Source: a virus
Virus record (IMG/VR): IMGVR_UViG_3300045988_090936
Length of the DNA: 58,728 bases
Direction: 5' to 3' (one strand)
Made by a program: the position numbers and the translations under genes
Part shown: one piece after another, positions 34,982 through 39,656 of the stretch
Position numbering within the stretch: position 1 is the stretch's first letter
Layout: each line of letters starts with the position of its first letter
Notes under the pieces: generated by a model
Databases searched by the model: none
What the model was told of the DNA's origin: nothing
The model's input: only the letters and a program-made list of their open reading frames with translations

Positions 34982-35373
34982 TATAGATTCACCTCCCAGT
35001 TAATATTGATATCACCAATATTTGTTTCAACTAAAAATACTACATTCGCTACATCTTTATTAAAAGAGATATCAAAATCAGTAACATCTAATATTCTATC
35101 ATCTTCTAATATAGCTTCAGCAATTCTTCTTTTCAATTCTGACTTAACAAAATCTCTATCCTTTCCAACTAAAGAATCAAATTCAGTACCATAATACCAA
35201 TTGTATATTACTGATTCATATCTCTCGGTAGAAAGTATTAAATAGATTGCTTGAACAATAGCATCTTTATCGTCTATGTAACCGGAAATACGATTTGTAT
35301 TTCTATTTATATAATATGTTTTAGACGGCATAGTATTATCTTGTTGATATATTGTATTATAATCTGGCAACAT
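34981..35373 (-). CDS. XkdS/gp25-like baseplate wedge protein (DUF2634-like)
   Basis: KTYYINRNTNRISGYIDDKDAIVQAIYLILSTERYE pattern. Confidence 0.6.
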   Translation of the reverse strand: MLPDYNTIYQQDNTMPSKTYYINRNTNRISGYIDDKDAIVQAIYLILSTERYESVIYNWYYGTEFDSLVGKDRDFVKSELKRRIAEAILEDDRILDVTDFDISFNKDVANVVFLVETNIGDININWEVNL

Positions 35374-35411
35374 ATCTAATTACCTCCTTCTTTTCTTTAA
35401 TTATTTTATGT

Positions 35412-35876
35412 TTATGATACTCTCTTCCAGGCATAAACTTGAAAAGTGGCTATATTATGTGAGTGCCCTTCACTAGCATTTGAACCTCCTGCATATTCAG
35501 TATTAGTCCAAGAGTCTTCGTGCATATCTCCTTTATATACATCTCCATGAAATCCATAAGACATCTCAGAGAATTTGTAAAAAGGAGAATGAATATTATG
35601 ATTATGTGCTGGTAATCCTGATTGATTAGCAGTTAAAGTATGACTTTGAGTACCGATTCCTGTATAATTAGTTTTAGTACCACCAGTTCCTAGATATAAA
35701 TAATAACCACTTATTTGTTCCCATTTTCCTCCAAAGATAGTTCCTGGGTTGGTATTGTTTACTGATAAATAAACATAACCTATTGGAAATAGAATAGTAT
35801 TTAATATTTTCTTATTATGTACTATTCCTCTAGTATCTAAATATAAATTATTCTTTAACTTAACTGATTTGCTCAT
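35412..35876 (-). CDS. receptor-binding tip protein, cassette A (154 aa)
   Basis: PIGYVYLS...NPGTIFGGKWEQ, HNHNIH and GHSHNI HxH motifs, C-terminal VYAWKRVS; paralogous to the next three genes. Confidence 0.7.
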   Translation of the reverse strand: MSKSVKLKNNLYLDTRGIVHNKKILNTILFPIGYVYLSVNNTNPGTIFGGKWEQISGYYLYLGTGGTKTNYTGIGTQSHTLTANQSGLPAHNHNIHSPFYKFSEMSYGFHGDVYKGDMHEDSWTNTEYAGGSNASEGHSHNIATFQVYAWKRVS

Positions 35877-35892
35877 ACCTTACGGTATTATC

Positions 35893-36356
35893 TTAACTTA
35901 CTCTTTTCCACATTTTTACTACTATATAAGGTTGGAGGTTTCCACTATTTCCAGTATTAACTCCTCTTACACCCTTTGTATATACAGCGCCTCCTTGAGA
36001 TACTTCTGTATTTGTTGCTACTCCGTATCCACCAGCTGGTGCGGGTATTGGAAAATCACTATAATAAGTATAATGACTATGTTCCTGTATATATTTACTA
36101 CCACCAGTTTTTAGCAAAGTATTAAATTCCGTTTGTGAAGTATCAACTCCTACAAGACATCTTCCTGTTCCAAAAGTTTCCCAAGTACCGCCAAAGTAAG
36201 TAGAGGGATTAGTATTAACAGTAGATATAAATATGGAACCTACCGGATAAATATTATCAAGTAAGTTATTTAGATAATACCATCCCCCCCCCTCTTATGT
36301 ACTATTGAGGTTGAAGAAAGGTATAAACTATTTTTTAATTTTACTGCTTTTGACAT
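35893..36356 (-). pseudogene. receptor-binding tip protein, cassette B, interrupted by a frameshift at a G9 tract (phase-OFF allele)
   Basis: ATG at 36356 gives MSKAVKLKNSLYLSSTSIVHKRGG, then the frame breaks at the G9 run and stops after 28 aa. With 10 G the frame runs to 35893 (154 aa, ending KMWKRVS). Confidence 0.8.
36284..36292 (-). repeat. homopolymeric G9 tract (C9 on the plus strand) inside cassette B
   Basis: Plus strand cat-ccccccccc-tctt, counted directly. Confidence 0.9.
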
Positions 36357-36374
36357 ATAGTTTGAACTATATTA

Positions 36375-36833
36375 TTAAGCTGTTCTTATCCAAATATAAC
36401 ATGTAATATAAGGTTGAAAATTAGAAACAGTACCTGTATTTCCATGATTATGCGGTTGATTATAACCATATTGACCATAGTCTCTTAATGAGGTAATCTG
36501 CCAACCACTAACCCCTGTTTTTGCAGCTCCTGATAAATAACCAAAGTTACCATCAATGCAAACTTCTAATGGTAAATGTTTATAATCTAAAGTAAAGTTT
36601 CCAGTTGTATGATAATGTTCTTTGTTACCACCAGTTTTCTTAACAGTATTGAAATTGATATCTGATGTATCCACGCATACTGGAACTCTTCCTGGACCAA
36701 ATAGTTCCCACTTACCACCAAGATAGTTTGATGGATTAGTTGCTATAGTAGTAAGAAATAAATCTCCTACCCTATAATATGGAGTGGTTACAATTTTATT
36801 ACCTGTTTTATCTTTTAAATAAACTGCCTTCAT
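36375..36833 (-). CDS. receptor-binding tip protein, cassette C (152 aa)
   Basis: MKAVYLKDKTGNKIV..., RVGDLFLTT...NPSNYLGGKWE, HNHGN, C-terminal YIWIRTA. Confidence 0.7.
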   Translation of the reverse strand: MKAVYLKDKTGNKIVTTPYYRVGDLFLTTIATNPSNYLGGKWELFGPGRVPVCVDTSDINFNTVKKTGGNKEHYHTTGNFTLDYKHLPLEVCIDGNFGYLSGAAKTGVSGWQITSLRDYGQYGYNQPHNHGNTGTVSNFQPYITCYIWIRTA

Positions 36834-36847
36834 TCTATTCTAATAGA

Positions 36848-37288
36848 TTATTTTATTCTTTTCCATACCCATACACCAATATGCGGAATATCATGTGAAT
36901 GTCCTTTACCACCGCCTGTATAAGACGTATCTCTTTCAAATCTATATGTGGTTGAACCATCTTGTACTCCAAGTATATCTTCACCACCAGCTTGTTCTGA
37001 ATAATACATTCTTGGCGCCCAATAAATATGCTTATGAGATGGTATTTGGTTAATTGTCAATGTTGTGTCAAAGCTCTTTGTAGAACCAACGCTACTATTC
37101 ATAAGGTTATTATCTATAGCGCTATTACATCCCCAAAGAAATCCTCCAGAAATCTTTTCCCAGGTTCCTCCAAAGTATTTACTTGGATTATCATTAGATA
37201 CGGTTAAGAATATTGAACCAATAGGCATCCACGGAGCAGCAAATACTTTATTTCCATTTTTATCTTTTAACTGAACCGCCCTAGCCAT
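36848..37288 (-). CDS. receptor-binding tip protein, cassette D (146 aa from MARAVQLKDKNGNKVF)
   Basis: PIGSIFLTVSNDNPSKYFGGTWE, SHKH, GHSHDI, C-terminal VWVWKRIK. Start chosen at the ATG behind AGGTGA, parallel to the other cassettes. Confidence 0.7.
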   Translation of the reverse strand: MARAVQLKDKNGNKVFAAPWMPIGSIFLTVSNDNPSKYFGGTWEKISGGFLWGCNSAIDNNLMNSSVGSTKSFDTTLTINQIPSHKHIYWAPRMYYSEQAGGEDILGVQDGSTTYRFERDTSYTGGGKGHSHDIPHIGVWVWKRIK

Positions 37289-37391
37289 TGGCATCACCTA
37301 ATCTATTTATACCTCCTTCCGGAGATATATGAGAAGGAGAACAACTTAAATAAGTTCTTCCCCCCCCCCCTCGAATTATTCTAAACATCAT
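37281..37391 (-). CDS. 36-aa leader ORF containing a G11 tract, ending on the cassette D start codon
   Basis: AAAGGAG RBS 9 nt before ATGATG; MMFRIIRGGGGRTYLSCSPSHISPEGGINRLGDANG; its stop TAG overlaps the ATG of cassette D (ATGGCTAG). Confidence 0.4.
   Translation of the reverse strand: MMFRIIRGGGGRTYLSCSPSHISPEGGINRLGDANG
37360..37370 (-). repeat. homopolymeric G11 tract (C11 on the plus strand)
   Basis: Plus strand ttctt-ccccccccccc-tcgaa, counted directly. Confidence 0.9.
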
Positions 37392-37408
37392 AATTTCAAA
37401 CTCCTTTC

Positions 37409-37960
37409 TTAAAAGTCTTCAATTACTTCATACTCTAAATATACATCTAAATTAGGTTTATTCTTTATGTAATCTAAAGAAGATGTATTAGTTTGATTCC
37501 AATCACTTTGTATTTGAGCAGCTGGTATAGTTGGTTTATCTCTTAAATCATTATAAGAACCAGTTTTTGATATCTTATGTAATTTAATAGTTCCTCCTAT
37601 TGTTTCATTACTGCTTACTGATTGGCTTGCTGTATTATTAGTATTTAGAATTGGCTTGTTTTGAAGGTCATTATAATTTATTGTACCTCCACTTGCTGCC
37701 TTTCCTAAAATATAAAATCTTTGACCATTGTTGTAACGAACCATTTCAATTTCTTCTCCCACAACAAGTGGTAGGGCTGAACTAGGAGAAGAGTCATCTA
37801 TTCCTAGACTCCTAGGTTCAATGAAGCTCAGCCCTATACTAATTTTATTACTAATTCTTACTTTTAGAGGTTCTAAAGATTCTACTGTACCTTTTATTAT
37901 TGTTGTAAATGAAATACTGTTTAATTTACGGTTTATTGCTTCATTTATAGTATTTATCAT
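37409..37960 (-). CDS. XkdR/gpV-like baseplate spike protein with C-terminal fibre repeats
   Basis: GTVESLEPLKVRISNKISIG (DUF2577-like OB fold); repeats YNDLQNKP / YNDLRDKP / DYIKNKP. Confidence 0.55.
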   Translation of the reverse strand: MINTINEAINRKLNSISFTTIIKGTVESLEPLKVRISNKISIGLSFIEPRSLGIDDSSPSSALPLVVGEEIEMVRYNNGQRFYILGKAASGGTINYNDLQNKPILNTNNTASQSVSSNETIGGTIKLHKISKTGSYNDLRDKPTIPAAQIQSDWNQTNTSSLDYIKNKPNLDVYLEYEVIEDF

Positions 37961-38946
37961 TCAAACCTCACCTCCAAGTCCATATCATGAATACCATTTG
38001 AGTACTTATCCTCTATCTTGGTAATCAATGCAGCTTGGTTAAATGTAATACCAGGTATATCAGTTATTTGAAGATAGATACCATTACCTGGTTCTAAATC
38101 TATTAACCCTTTACAATTTAATTTCAAAGTTCTATTTAATCTATTATAAAGTCTTAATAGTTGTTCTGCTTTGGCTCTTGCTTGAGCATCAGTAACATTT
38201 TCATCAACTGATTGATATAATTGAAGCATACCCCATCTTTTCTGATTATCAGAATCTTTTACTATATATACTTCTCTTCTACCTGTATCTTTATTATCTT
38301 TGTATAACTTAACACTGTTATAAACATCTGAATCTATTGATTCTTTATAACTATAATCTTTTAATAAACTTACATTACCTATAATTGCATTGGTAACTAA
38401 TTTACTTACATCTCTGCAGCATAAGTATCCAAACTCATCTCTAATTATATATTGTCTACCAGTTCCTTGTAAAGTAAAATCTATTGCTCTTTGAATTATA
38501 TCTCCTAGCGCTTTATTATCTTCTACCCTTTCTGGTAATATATATCTAGAACCTTCAATAGTTCCTAATCTTAAATTGAAATCTCTTCCTATCAATCTAA
38601 TAAGGTTTTCCATAGTAGTTCCAGTTAATACATAACTTTCACTATTCTTTAGATATCTCAATTGATCATAGGCTGTTATACTAACACTATCTCCTTTTGG
38701 TTCTGCTGTAAATATATAACCAAAGAATTTTCCTTTTCTCTTTCCACCTTCAGTAACTGTTAAACTTACTGTACTACCCATTGGAAATCTTATTTTATTT
38801 TGATTTGTATCAATAGAAAAGGAACACTTTCCTGCAGAGTTATCGATAGCTTTACTAGTACTTACATCTTTTGCAATATTACTTACATCGTATATAGTAC
38901 CATCTTCTGAACTTTGAATAATCAATTCTAAACTATCATACTGCAT
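37957..38946 (-). CDS. XkdQ / late control gene D-like baseplate hub protein
   Basis: Size and conserved position between the LysM protein and the spike. Confidence 0.55.
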   Translation of the reverse strand: MQYDSLELIIQSSEDGTIYDVSNIAKDVSTSKAIDNSAGKCSFSIDTNQNKIRFPMGSTVSLTVTEGGKRKGKFFGYIFTAEPKGDSVSITAYDQLRYLKNSESYVLTGTTMENLIRLIGRDFNLRLGTIEGSRYILPERVEDNKALGDIIQRAIDFTLQGTGRQYIIRDEFGYLCCRDVSKLVTNAIIGNVSLLKDYSYKESIDSDVYNSVKLYKDNKDTGRREVYIVKDSDNQKRWGMLQLYQSVDENVTDAQARAKAEQLLRLYNRLNRTLKLNCKGLIDLEPGNGIYLQITDIPGITFNQAALITKIEDKYSNGIHDMDLEVRFE

Positions 38947-38957
38947 AGTGTTCCCTC

Positions 38958-39656
38958 CTAACTAGATGGAATTGAAAGAACTTGACCTGGATAAATCAAA
39001 TTAGGATTTCCACCTATAATACTCTTATTATTATTATATGTATAAATCTCTCTCCACCTAGAACCACTACCAAGAAATTTTTGTGCTATCTTCCACAAGG
39101 AATCTCCACTAATTACTGTATATTGTTTAGGTATTGATTTTTCCACTGGTCTATTACTATTGGTTGTTGTAGGTGCTGCACTAGAAACAGTTCTACCACT
39201 ACTATCCACAACCATATAACCATTGCTTACTGGTTTAAGTATTCTTACATTATGTTCTTTATATTCCTTTAAACTTAAACTATAATCAACATCATCAGTA
39301 CCAAATTGATAAGTATGTTCAAAACTCTCAACACTTACTAACATATTGATATCTAATTGGGTTATTATCAATCTAAATGGTTTTCTATCTTTCTTTATAT
39401 CCTCGAAGAACTTAACATAGAATTCTGGTCCTTCAAATCCTCCACTAGTATTGATATACCCTTCTCCATTATCCCTCGCAGGAAAGAAGGATTCGATAGA
39501 TAATTCCTTTAACCCAGCGAATCCAATATCATTGATTTCTCCTTGTCCTACGGTATCAACAGTATTATTATTGGCTTGACCACTAATAGTAATACTCTCG
39601 GGATTTACAGGAAGCTGTATAATTCTCTCATTGTACTTTGCAAAGAAACTTATCAT
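38958..39656 (-). CDS. XkdP-like LysM-domain tail protein
   Basis: C-terminal [27 protein letters not shown]...[10 protein letters not shown] LysM. Confidence 0.7.

What the first reader, a model, noticed from the sequence alone, without database searches (positions are those of the whole stretch)
37281..37391. G11 tract in a leader ORF whose stop codon overlaps the start codon of cassette D
Directly after the spike gene stop there is a good RBS (AAAGGAG, 9-nt spacing) and the sequence ATG ATG TTT AGA ATA ATT CGA G11 A AGA ....

The outcome depends on tract length:
- With 11 G, the 36-codon ORF ends at a TAG that overlaps the cassette D start (ATGGCTAG). This geometry is typical of termination-reinitiation coupling.
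- With 12 G, it ends at a TAG 12 nt before that ATG.
- With 10 G, it ends early (GAA GAA CTT ATT TAA), about 50 nt upstream.

No tract length fuses the leader to cassette D. The tract therefore cannot act as a simple in-frame ON/OFF switch, but it could change how far ribosomes travel toward the cassette D start.

The peptide context (IIRGGGGRTYL) resembles the tract context in cassette B (VHKRGGGWYYL). The segment may therefore be a recombination remnant of another cassette N-terminus.
Basis: partly seen in the sequence, partly recalled or inferred. Interest (0 to 1): 0.6.

Follow-up and report, generated by a model that had tools for sequence, protein, structure and literature searches.

The report
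Variable poly-G leader before phage tail-tip genes
A run of eleven G's sits in a short, conserved, strongly folded leader in front of a gut phage's array of small tail-tip genes. Its length changes often between related phages, so it may tune how many ribosomes enter the array, a variant of the poly-G switches already known in Campylobacter phages.

Summary
On the minus strand, a good ribosome-binding site (SD1) precedes ATGATG..CGA-G11. The 36-codon ORF (37391-37281) ends at a TAG overlapping ATGGCTAG of cassette D.

What it is:
- **Non-random tract.** The genome has only two G/C runs of 7 or more, both in this locus.
- **Conserved leader.** The same ~110-nt leader occurs in 35 independent metagenome contigs, in front of three different first cassettes.
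- **Variable length.** The tract is 8-13 G long, with 10 in 21 of 35 contigs. It is the only indel between two near-identical pairs.
- **Origin.** The 50 nt after the tract are homologous to the 50 nt after cassette B's poly-G (28/50, anchored). The leader is therefore a re-used cassette N-terminus, and G11 restores its old frame.
- **Structure.** Unlike the B segment, it folds into two strong hairpins, and the second buries the next ribosome-binding site (SD2).
- **Array entry.** All later cassettes lack ribosome-binding sites, so the leader is the array's only ribosome entry.

Most likely this is a contingency tract that sets how far leader-ORF ribosomes travel. That effect is inferred, not shown. 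G11 is not the conserved state.

An earlier scan report covered cassette B's tract in this genome.

The parts
37409..37960 (-). Spike-like baseplate gene (183 aa): a DUF2577/XkdR-like N-terminus followed by YNDLxxKP fibre repeats. The leader begins 1 nt after its stop codon.
   Evidence: ORF list; Pfam DUF2577 at E 6e-5; gene order LysM, YQBQ, spike.
37401..37407 (-). SD1 (AAAGGAG), the first ribosome-binding site, 9 nt before the leader ATG. It is predicted to be unpaired.
   Evidence: Sequence; anti-SD duplex -8.5 kcal/mol; 9 % paired in the ensemble. Present in every leader sequence listed, with some spacer variation.
37281..37391 (-). Leader ORF, 36 codons in the G11 state. Its stop TAG (37283-37281) overlaps ATGGCTAG of cassette D.
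   Evidence: The same 36-codon form occurs in L096, L104 and L119. A 13-15-codon form occurs in 22 contigs (tracts of 10 or 13 G, excluding L128).
37360..37370 (-). Poly-G tract (G11), which also forms the 5' arm of hairpin 1.
   Evidence: Length is 8-13 in relatives. Short control runs never vary.
37331..37370 (-). Hairpin 1: G tract plus AAGAACUU paired with AAGUUGUUCUCCUUCUC, about -20.8 kcal/mol. The G10-frame stop TAA (37348-37346) lies in its loop.
   Evidence: Folds. The energy is -20.8 to -20.9 kcal/mol for G9-G11.
37308..37329 (-). Hairpin 2: UAUAUCUCC-GGAA-GGAGGUAUA, -10 to -11 kcal/mol. It buries SD2, the second ribosome-binding site (GGAGG, 37316-37312).
   Evidence: SD2 is 99.9 % paired with or without a ribosome on the short ORF.
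37310..37359 (-). Segment homologous to cassette B's post-tract coding sequence (36283-36234).
   Evidence: 28/50 ungapped identity anchored at the tract end. The genome-wide mean is 13.6, and only 3 other windows reach 28.
36848..37297 (-). Cassette D (Gp10_C domain). Candidate starts are GTG 37297 and ATG 37288.
   Evidence: Pfam PF21939 at E 1.6e-14; ORF list.
35412..36833 (-). Cassettes C (36833-36375), B (36356-35893; G9 at 36292-36284, out of frame) and A (35876-35412). None has a ribosome-binding site, and the C and B starts lie 14 and 19 nt after the preceding stop.
   Evidence: Pfam. SD energies are 0.2, 1.0 and -0.4 against a genome median of -10.6 kcal/mol. The same holds in all 50 non-first cassettes of relatives.

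Best explanation
The G11 run is a hypermutable (slipped-strand) contingency tract. It is kept inside a structured translational leader that was built from the 5' fragment of a former B-type tip cassette. The leader is the only ribosome entry point for an array of three or four small Gp10_C tail-tip genes.

**Layout.** A free ribosome-binding site (SD1) starts a short upstream ORF that runs into the G tract. The tract forms one arm of a strong hairpin. A second hairpin locks away the ribosome-binding site (SD2) in front of the first cassette.

**How tract length acts.** Tract length leaves the predicted hairpin-1 energy unchanged for G9-G11. It changes only the frame of the upstream ORF.
- With 3n+1 G's (10 or 13), ribosomes stop after 13-15 codons in the loop of hairpin 1.
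- With 3n or 3n+2 G's (8, 9, 11, 12), they read on through hairpin 2. They terminate within a few bases of the first cassette's start. In this window, that stop overlaps ATGGCTAG.

**Proposed effect.** These read-through frames would open SD2 and feed ribosomes into cassette D by termination-reinitiation. Serial coupling would then carry them into the following cassettes, which have no ribosome-binding sites.

**Shown:** the tract, its variability, the conserved leader, its origin, the predicted folds and the missing ribosome-binding sites.

**Inferred:** that length changes are frequent and reversible within a population, and that they change cassette expression.
For: - **Non-random tract.** Only two long G/C runs exist in the genome, both in this locus.
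- **Conserved leader.** It occurs in 35 independent contigs, ahead of three different first-cassette junctions.
- **Variable length.** Counts by length are 8 (1 contig), 9 (6), 10 (21), 11 (5), 12 (1) and 13 (1).
- **Tract-specific indels.** The tract is the only gap opening in the L114/L116 alignment (99.7 % identical over 4.1 kb; 8 vs 10 G) and in L106/L111 (10 vs 9 G). None of 14 shorter control runs varies.
- **Strong fold.** The leader folds at -32.2 kcal/mol, z = -5.1. The homologous B segment does not (z = -0.25).
- **Accessibility.** SD1 is 91 % free and SD2 is 99.9 % paired, even with a ribosome placed on the short ORF. Hairpin 1 has the same energy for G9-G11.
- **No ribosome-binding sites downstream.** Cassettes C, B and A have none, against a genome median of -10.6 kcal/mol. 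All 50 non-first cassettes in relatives lack one, with 14-20 nt gaps.
- **Precedent in relatives.** Tract-less relatives (G001 type) place a ribosome-binding site plus a 12-codon upstream ORF before the same cassette type. Its stop overlaps ATGGCTAA.
- **Stop positions.** In all three junction types, both read-through frames end between 19 nt before and 20 nt after the conserved cassette start. This includes an ATGA overlap in L102.
Against: - The commonest length (10; 60 % of contigs, in every junction type) gives the short ORF that never reaches SD2. On the simple model, most phages would then have the array throttled.
- L082 carries both tracts interrupted at 10 nt (G7AGG here, G8AG in B). 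For B, 10 nt is the in-frame state. This hints that '10' is a productive state or a neutral one.
- The open read-through frames need no selection. One is the relic's ancestral frame, and the region is poor in stop-forming bases.
- Stops close to the cassette start are expected in an AT-rich spacer.
- Diversity in the leader (0.036) is not clearly below synonymous diversity in a neighbouring gene (0.051), so purifying selection is not demonstrated.
- There is no read-level, RNA or protein evidence.
Confidence: 0.5

Rival explanations
1. Structured leader with an incidental tract. The leader matters as an RNA structure, for example as a processing or stability hairpin between the spike and cassette messages. 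It may also matter as a constant region for recombination. The G run is kept only because it pairs with the C/U-rich arm. Length changes would then be tolerated noise with no effect on cassette translation, which runs at a low constitutive level from SD2.
For: - Hairpin 1 has the same predicted energy for G9-G11.
- All three frames occur in every junction type, with no sign of frame selection.
- The tract is inherited from a cassette relic.
- Leader diversity is not clearly lower than synonymous diversity.
- Baseplate tip proteins are needed in few copies, so weak translation could be enough.
Against: - SD2 is 99.9 % paired, and the D-type start lies 14-23 nt from it. Unaided initiation should therefore be very poor.
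- A stem selected only for pairing would gain from G-to-A changes opposite U. Yet 34 of 35 contigs keep a pure homopolymer.
- SD1 and the upstream ORF start are kept in all contigs.
Confidence: 0.3
2. The tract matters mainly as a recombination or deletion endpoint. The two G runs act as microhomology that deletes or reshuffles cassettes. This can place a B-type body directly behind SD1 as a new phase-variable gene.
For: - In L100 the leader up to G10 is joined directly to the post-tract body of a B-type cassette. Cassettes D and C and B's N-terminus are missing. G11 would give an in-frame MMFRIIRGGGGWYYLNNLL.. protein.
- The leader itself is a copy of a B-type tract region.
Against: - Only one such contig was found among 35.
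- No such junction exists in IMG/VR.
- No protein starting MMFRIIRGG occurs among the 120 best homologues.
- A deletion is irreversible, so this cannot explain why the tract and its fold are maintained.
Confidence: 0.1
3. The frame is changed at the RNA or ribosome level rather than in DNA. RNA polymerase slippage or -1 ribosomal frameshifting on the G run would produce a fixed mixture of leader frames from any template length.
For: The G run is a homopolymeric slippery sequence, and a stable stem lies directly downstream.
Against: - The tract itself forms the 5' arm of the stem. There is therefore no spacer between slip site and structure.
- DNA-level length differences are directly observed.
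- Nothing tested here speaks for RNA-level slippage.
Confidence: 0.05
4. Homopolymer miscalling. G11 in this window, and the spread among contigs, are sequencing or assembly errors.
For: - G homopolymers are error-prone in short-read data.
- Three Logan contigs end in or at the start of the tract (L108, L109, L112).
Against: - All other genes in the window are intact.
- G11 with the same junction recurs in three independent samples (L096, L104, L119).
- The range of 8-13 is too wide for consensus error.
- Interrupted variants exist (L082), and none of 14 shorter control runs varies.
Confidence: 0.05

Closest known systems
Hypermutable poly-G tracts in receptor-binding genes of Campylobacter Fletchervirus phages (Sorensen et al. 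2021, Cell Rep 35:109214; cited in PMC12823448)
   Same: A long G run in an AT-rich phage genome, located in the host-recognition module. Its length varies between close relatives. The presumed role is bet-hedging over host range.
   Different: In those phages the tracts lie inside the receptor-binding ORFs and switch them on or off by frameshift, as cassette B's tract does here. This tract lies in a short upstream ORF. No length fuses it to the downstream gene, so any effect must go through translation initiation.
Variable G-repeat in the Helicobacter pylori tlpB-hp0102 mRNA leader, targeted by the C/U-rich loop of the sRNA RepG (PMC8295292)
   Same: A length-variable G repeat in an mRNA leader pairs with a C/U-rich RNA. 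Repeat length tunes expression of a downstream operon gradually and post-transcriptionally, rather than on/off.
   Different: Here the C/U-rich partner is in cis and forms a hairpin. The predicted pairing energy does not change between G9 and G11. The repeat also sits inside a translated short ORF. The system is in a phage, not a bacterium.
Haemophilus influenzae hmw 5'-UTR repeat hairpin processed by RNase III (PMC12721329)
   Same: A simple-sequence repeat forms one arm of a long 5'-leader hairpin in front of a surface or adhesion gene.
   Different: That repeat is a heptamer array, and expression scales with repeat number through RNase III cleavage. No cleavage was tested here, and hairpin 1 is only about 16 bp.
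Translational coupling by termination-reinitiation, and unmasking of a structured ribosome-binding site by upstream translation (classical bacterial and phage operons; own knowledge)
   Same: An upstream ORF has its own ribosome-binding site. Its stop overlaps or abuts the downstream start. The downstream ribosome-binding site is sequestered in a stem that the upstream ribosome must melt.
   Different: The upstream ORF's reach is set by a mutable homopolymer, giving three heritable states. I found no described case of this in two literature searches, which is not proof that none exists.
Phage contingency loci in T2/T4 (bioRxiv 10.1101/2025.10.21.683753)
   Same: Short repeats in phage genomes generate reversible frameshift diversity as bet-hedging.
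   Different: Those are in-ORF frameshifts in coliphages. None is described as acting through an upstream ORF.

Membership tests
Contingency locus (simple-sequence-repeat phase variation) | A homopolymer or short repeat much longer than composition predicts | tested here: met
   G11. Only two G/C runs of 7 or more occur in 58.7 kb, and 6e-4 are expected.
Contingency locus (simple-sequence-repeat phase variation) | Repeat length differs between otherwise near-identical genomes | tested here: met
   Length is 8-13 in 35 contigs. L114/L116 are 99.7 % identical with one gap opening (tracts 8 vs 10). L106/L111 differ by one mismatch and one gap (10 vs 9). Control runs are invariant.
Contingency locus (simple-sequence-repeat phase variation) | Length heterogeneity within one population, reversible at high rate | not testable with these tools
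Contingency locus (simple-sequence-repeat phase variation) | A length change alters expression of a gene product | tested here: inconclusive
   Length changes the frame and reach of the upstream ORF. The effect on cassette D is inferred only.
Translational coupling / termination-reinitiation | An upstream ORF with its own accessible ribosome-binding site | tested here: met
   SD1 AAAGGAG with a 9-nt spacer, -8.5 kcal/mol, 91 % unpaired.
Translational coupling / termination-reinitiation | The upstream stop overlaps or lies within a few nt of the downstream start | tested here: met
   Met in this window: the TAG overlaps ATGGCTAG. It is not met in the 22 contigs with tracts of 10 or 13 G (excluding L128), where the stop lies 46-58 nt upstream.
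Translational coupling / termination-reinitiation | The downstream start lacks an accessible ribosome-binding site of its own | tested here: met
   SD2 is 99.9 % paired in hairpin 2 (-11.4 kcal/mol) and lies 14 nt from the GTG and 23 nt from the ATG.
Translational coupling / termination-reinitiation | Downstream expression depends on upstream translation | not testable with these tools
   This needs reporter fusions or in-vitro translation.
Leader-peptide translational attenuation (ermC/cat type) | Mutually exclusive pairings, so that a ribosome stalled in the leader frees SD2 | tested here: not met
   With a ribosome placed on the tract or at the short ORF's stop, SD2 stays 99.9 % paired. The freed C/U arm does not displace hairpin 2 in a way that exposes SD2.
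Intrinsic terminator / known RNA family | A stem followed by a U run, or a match to an Rfam model | tested here: not met
   No terminator-like site in 35000-39000. No Rfam match at E up to 1.
Remnant of a B-type cassette N-terminus | Sequence homology to a cassette, collinear with the tract | tested here: met
   28/50 identity anchored at the tract end, about 5e-5 by the genome-wide window control. The G11 frame GRTYLSCSPSHISPEGG aligns with B's GWYYLNNLLDNIYPVGS. The pre-tract part is not homologous (4/20).

The most novel reading that the evidence does not exclude
A contingency locus that acts through translational coupling instead of breaking an ORF or respacing a promoter. A mutable G run inside a short upstream ORF gives three heritable ribosome-traffic states. 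These gate a whole array of tail-tip genes that lack ribosome-binding sites, in a gut clostridial-type myophage. Together with the in-ORF tract in cassette B, this would give combinatorial tip repertoires. The leader would also be a documented case of a dead gene fragment rebuilt into a regulatory RNA while keeping its mutable tract.
Probability: 0.35. Interest if true: 0.75.

Novelty: new variant of a known kind. Interest (0 to 1): 0.55.

Why it matters
- **Mechanism.** Poly-G phase variation of phage receptor-binding genes is known only as in-frame on/off switching. If this tract works as proposed, a mutable repeat can also act one step earlier. It would decide whether ribosomes from an upstream ORF reach and unlock a sequestered start site, and so set the dose of a whole cassette array.
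- **Ecology.** This would widen the ways gut phages can hedge host range.
- **Annotation.** Some assemblies call the 36-codon ORF as a gene. It exists in only 4 of 35 relatives and is better described as one state of a leader.
- **Evolution.** The relic-to-leader history is a clean example of how cassette arrays evolve. So is the deletion between the two tracts seen in L100.

Tried and rejected
- **Cultured relatives.** There is no DNA match in the phage collection. The closest cultured relatives of the baseplate J protein are Clostridioides/Clostridium myophages at 47 % identity.
- **Prokaryote genomes.** The genome-contig scan with the spike protein found only distant repeat-motif hits.
- **Known RNA elements.** There is no Rfam family, no terminator, and no excess of promoter-like sites.
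- **ermC-type attenuation.** Rejected, because no alternative pairing frees SD2.
- **In-frame leader-cassette fusion proteins.** None was found among the 120 best homologues, and no fusion junction exists in IMG/VR.
- **Purifying selection on the leader.** There is no statistical power (0.036 against 0.051). The three common polymorphic sites fall in a loop, at the base of hairpin 2 or just outside it, but they represent only two or three events.
- **Covariation in the hairpins.** The sequences are too similar to test this.
- **Association between the two tracts.** I saw no clear association between leader state and cassette B state across contigs (my reading of the lists; no formal test).
- **Contigs ending at the tract.** L109 and L112 stop after only 1-2 G. 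A simple length branch would not produce that, so these breaks may be technical and are not evidence of heterogeneity.

Full report
**1. What is in the sequence**

All genes of this region lie on the minus strand. The order is typical of a PBSX/clostridial-type contractile tail:
- tape measure protein (42090-39658);
- LysM protein;
- YQBQ/XkdQ-like hub;
- a 183-aa spike-like protein (37960-37409), with a DUF2577 N-terminus followed by YNDLxxKP repeats;
- the leader discussed here;
- four paralogous cassettes of about 150 aa (D, C, B, A), with D, C and A matching Pfam Gp10_C directly;
- sheath initiator, baseplate J and a Mu gp48-like protein.

One nucleotide after the spike stop comes the first ribosome-binding site (SD1), AAAGGAG. 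Nine nt later comes ATG ATG TTT AGA ATA ATT CGA, then eleven G (37370-37360).

In this state the ORF runs for 36 codons. It ends at TAG 37283-37281, overlapping ATG GCT AG of cassette D.

- The G12-frame TAG (37305-37303) lies 14 nt before that ATG. It is only 5 nt before an in-frame GTG (37297).
- The G10-frame TAA (37348-37346) lies 57 nt upstream.

**2. Is it more than chance?**

The window is 30 % G+C. It holds only two G/C runs of seven or more: this G11 and the G9 inside cassette B. The expected number of C runs of 11 or more is 6e-4.

All other genes are intact, so the assembly has no general homopolymer problem.

**3. Relatives**

I found related loci three ways: exact-word scans of IMG/VR and JGI metagenomes, a protein-based scan, and look-ups of exact proteins in public assemblies.

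Together they gave 35 independent contigs, most about 58 kb, that carry the same leader. One of them (L105 = L130) is identical to the window over 4.1 kb.

The leader is nearly invariant from SD1 to the second ribosome-binding site, SD2. What follows it differs:
- a D-type junction (..ATAAATAGATTAGGTGATGCCAATGGCTARGG);
- an E-type junction (..ATAATGAAGTAGGTGATTCTSTTGGCTAGAGG);
- a C-type cassette that starts 11 nt after SD2.

Tract length distribution:

| Length | Contigs |
|---|---|
| 8 | 1 |
| 9 | 6 |
| 10 | 21 |
| 11 | 5 |
| 12 | 1 |
| 13 | 1 |

- The 21 contigs at length 10 include one interrupted tract (G7AGG in L082).
- Every junction type shows several lengths.
- L114 and L116 are 99.7 % identical over 4.1 kb, with a single gap opening. 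Their tracts are 8 and 10 G.
- L106 and L111 differ by one mismatch and one gap. Their tracts are 10 and 9 G.
- Fourteen shorter runs in the same 9 kb never vary.
- Cassette B's tract behaves alike: 9 or 11 (out of frame) in about 13 contigs and 10 (in frame) in 10.

So the tract is hypervariable at the level of consensus genomes.

**4. Origin**

The 50 nt directly after the leader tract (37359-37310) are 28/50 identical to the 50 nt directly after B's tract (36283-36234). The match is ungapped and at the same offset.

The mean over all 58,678 genome windows is 13.6. Apart from the self-match, only three windows reach 28, and one of them is this predetermined site.

The part before the tract is not homologous (4/20).

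In the G11 frame the leader reads GRTYLSCSPSHISPEGG. Cassette B's in-frame sequence reads GWYYLNNLLDNIYPVGS.

The leader is therefore a diverged copy of the tract region of a B-type cassette, and G11 restores its ancestral frame.

It also explains why that frame is still open. Its openness cannot be counted as evidence for selection.

Contig L100 shows that the two tracts can recombine. There the leader up to G10 is joined directly to the body of a B-type cassette. D, C and B's own N-terminus are missing. G11 would give an in-frame protein starting from SD1.

**5. It is not a decaying relic**

- The leader folds into two hairpins (-32.2 kcal/mol; z = -5.1; 0 of 200 shuffles as good).
- The homologous B segment folds no better than shuffles (z = -0.25).
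- Hairpin 1 pairs the G tract plus AAGAACUU with AAGUUGUUCUCCUUCUC, at about -20.8 kcal/mol. The energy is the same for G9, G10 and G11. The G10-frame stop sits in its loop.
- Hairpin 2 (UAUAUCUCC-GGAA-GGAGGUAUA, -10 to -11 kcal/mol) buries SD2.
- In the ensemble SD1 is 91 % unpaired and SD2 is 99.9 % paired.
- SD2 stays paired when a ribosome footprint is imposed on the tract or at the short ORF's stop. An ermC-type attenuator is therefore not supported.
- No terminator, no promoter excess and no Rfam family match the region.

**6. Context that makes the leader important**

Almost every gene of this phage has a strong ribosome-binding site. The median anti-SD duplex energy is -10.6 kcal/mol.

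Cassettes C, B and A have none (0.2, 1.0 and -0.4). The C and B starts lie 14 and 19 nt after the preceding stop. A lies 16 nt after the stop of B's in-frame reading.

The same is true of all 50 non-first cassettes in the relatives, with gaps of 14-20 nt.

The array thus appears to be translated by serial coupling, and the leader is its only ribosome entry.

In D- and E-type junctions, SD2 lies 13-14 nt from the conserved GTG. It lies 22-23 nt from the ATG/TTG that aligns with other cassette starts. That is poor spacing even if SD2 were free.

A related lineage without any tract is informative (G001, L095, L134, L135, L137). It places a ribosome-binding site and a 12-codon upstream ORF (MNIKLVQGDSNG) before the same cassette type. 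Its stop overlaps ATGGCTAA. Termination-reinitiation at this start therefore has a natural precedent.

In the window, the 3' half of that upstream ORF survives (..LGDANG*). It has no start codon of its own. It is in frame with the leader ATG only for 3n+2 tracts such as G11.

**7. Proposed mechanism**

Tract length sets the frame of the upstream ORF.
- With 10 or 13 G, ribosomes stop in the loop of hairpin 1 and SD2 stays locked.
- With 8, 9, 11 or 12 G, they unwind hairpin 2 and stop next to the cassette start.

| Junction | Frame 3n (9, 12 G) | Frame 3n+2 (8, 11 G) |
|---|---|---|
| D-type | TAG 5 nt before GTG | stop overlaps ATGGCTAR |
| E-type | stop overlaps TTGGCTAG | TAG directly before GTG |
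| C-type | TGA overlaps ATGA (L102) | stop about 17 nt after the start |

The D-, E- and C-type 3n entries follow. The C-type 3n+2 entry is my own reading of the L005 sequence.

This would raise translation of the first cassette and, by coupling, of the array.

**8. What speaks against it**

- The mode, 10, is the state that never reaches SD2. It is the mode in each junction type.
- L082 has both tracts interrupted at the 10-nt length, which for B is the in-frame state.
- Stops near the cassette start are expected in an AT-rich spacer.
- Leader diversity (0.036) is not clearly below synonymous diversity in the YQBQ gene (0.051).

A relay is conceivable. A UUG lies 1 nt after the short ORF's stop, in the 3n frame, and it is GUG in L127. 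This is speculation.

I therefore give the functional switch about even odds. The main rival is a structured leader whose tract length is functionally neutral.

**9. Comparison with known systems**

- The closest known kind is the poly-G phase variation of receptor-binding genes in Campylobacter Fletchervirus phages (Sorensen 2021, cited in PMC12823448). Cassette B's tract is an ordinary member of that kind, as an earlier report of this scan concluded.
- The leader tract differs because it cannot switch an ORF on or off.
- Its nearest functional analogues are repeats in mRNA leaders. One is the H. pylori tlpB G repeat, bound by the C/U-rich loop of the sRNA RepG (PMC8295292). Here the C/U-rich partner is in cis.
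- Another is the H. influenzae hmw repeat hairpin (PMC12721329).
- Two literature searches found no case of a repeat inside an upstream ORF that gates a downstream gene by coupling.

I rate this a new variant of a known kind.

Noticed in passing
L100:2991-4000 (Logan DRR205589 contig): A deletion lies exactly between the leader tract and cassette B's tract. SD1-ATGATG..CGA-G10 is joined to the B-type body, leaving only that body and one further cassette. G11 would make an in-frame fusion, while the observed G10 is out of frame.
   Followed up: partly
window 35412-36833 and all relatives: Every non-first cassette lacks a ribosome-binding site (50 of 50) and follows the previous stop by 14-20 nt. 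The phage's other genes nearly all have strong sites. An out-of-frame B should therefore also starve cassette A of ribosomes, a polar effect.
   Followed up: partly
L006:7000-7075; L095, L134, L135, L137: The tract-less sister lineage has a ribosome-binding site and a 12-codon upstream ORF (MNIKLVQGDSNG) whose TAA overlaps ATGGCTAA of its single D-type cassette. Just upstream, a TA dinucleotide repeat differs by two units between L006 and L095. This is another simple repeat at the equivalent place.
   Followed up: partly
L128 (Logan SRR24860739 contig), leader: G10 is followed by AGAAC instead of AAGAAC. This 1-nt loss next to the tract puts the upstream ORF into the 3n frame without changing the G count.
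   Followed up: no
L082:3389 and 4425: Both tracts are interrupted by an A (G7AGG in the leader, G8AG in B) at a total of 10 nt, and B is in frame. This looks like a lineage that has locked both switches.
   Followed up: partly
window 37345-37342; L127 leader: A UUG lies 1 nt after the short upstream ORF's stop (UAAGUUG), in the frame that reads through hairpin 2. In L127, the only substitution in the apical stem turns it into GUG. This could be a restart relay, or it could be chance.
   Followed up: no
L108, L109, L112 (Logan contigs): Three of eight contigs that encode the window's exact spike protein end in or at the start of the G tract. The cause may be heterogeneity, or poor poly-G read quality.
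   Followed up: no
spike gene in relatives (L129, L133, L096, L006, L007): The spike-like protein varies widely: 114, 154, 180, 183 or 334 aa. In a more distant relative (L007) it is 532 aa, with a tail-collar-type receptor-binding domain fused on. The separate cassettes may therefore replace a fused tip.
   Followed up: no
If its G's are modified, that could change slippage at the G tracts and rule out G-quadruplexes. This was not examined here.
   Followed up: no
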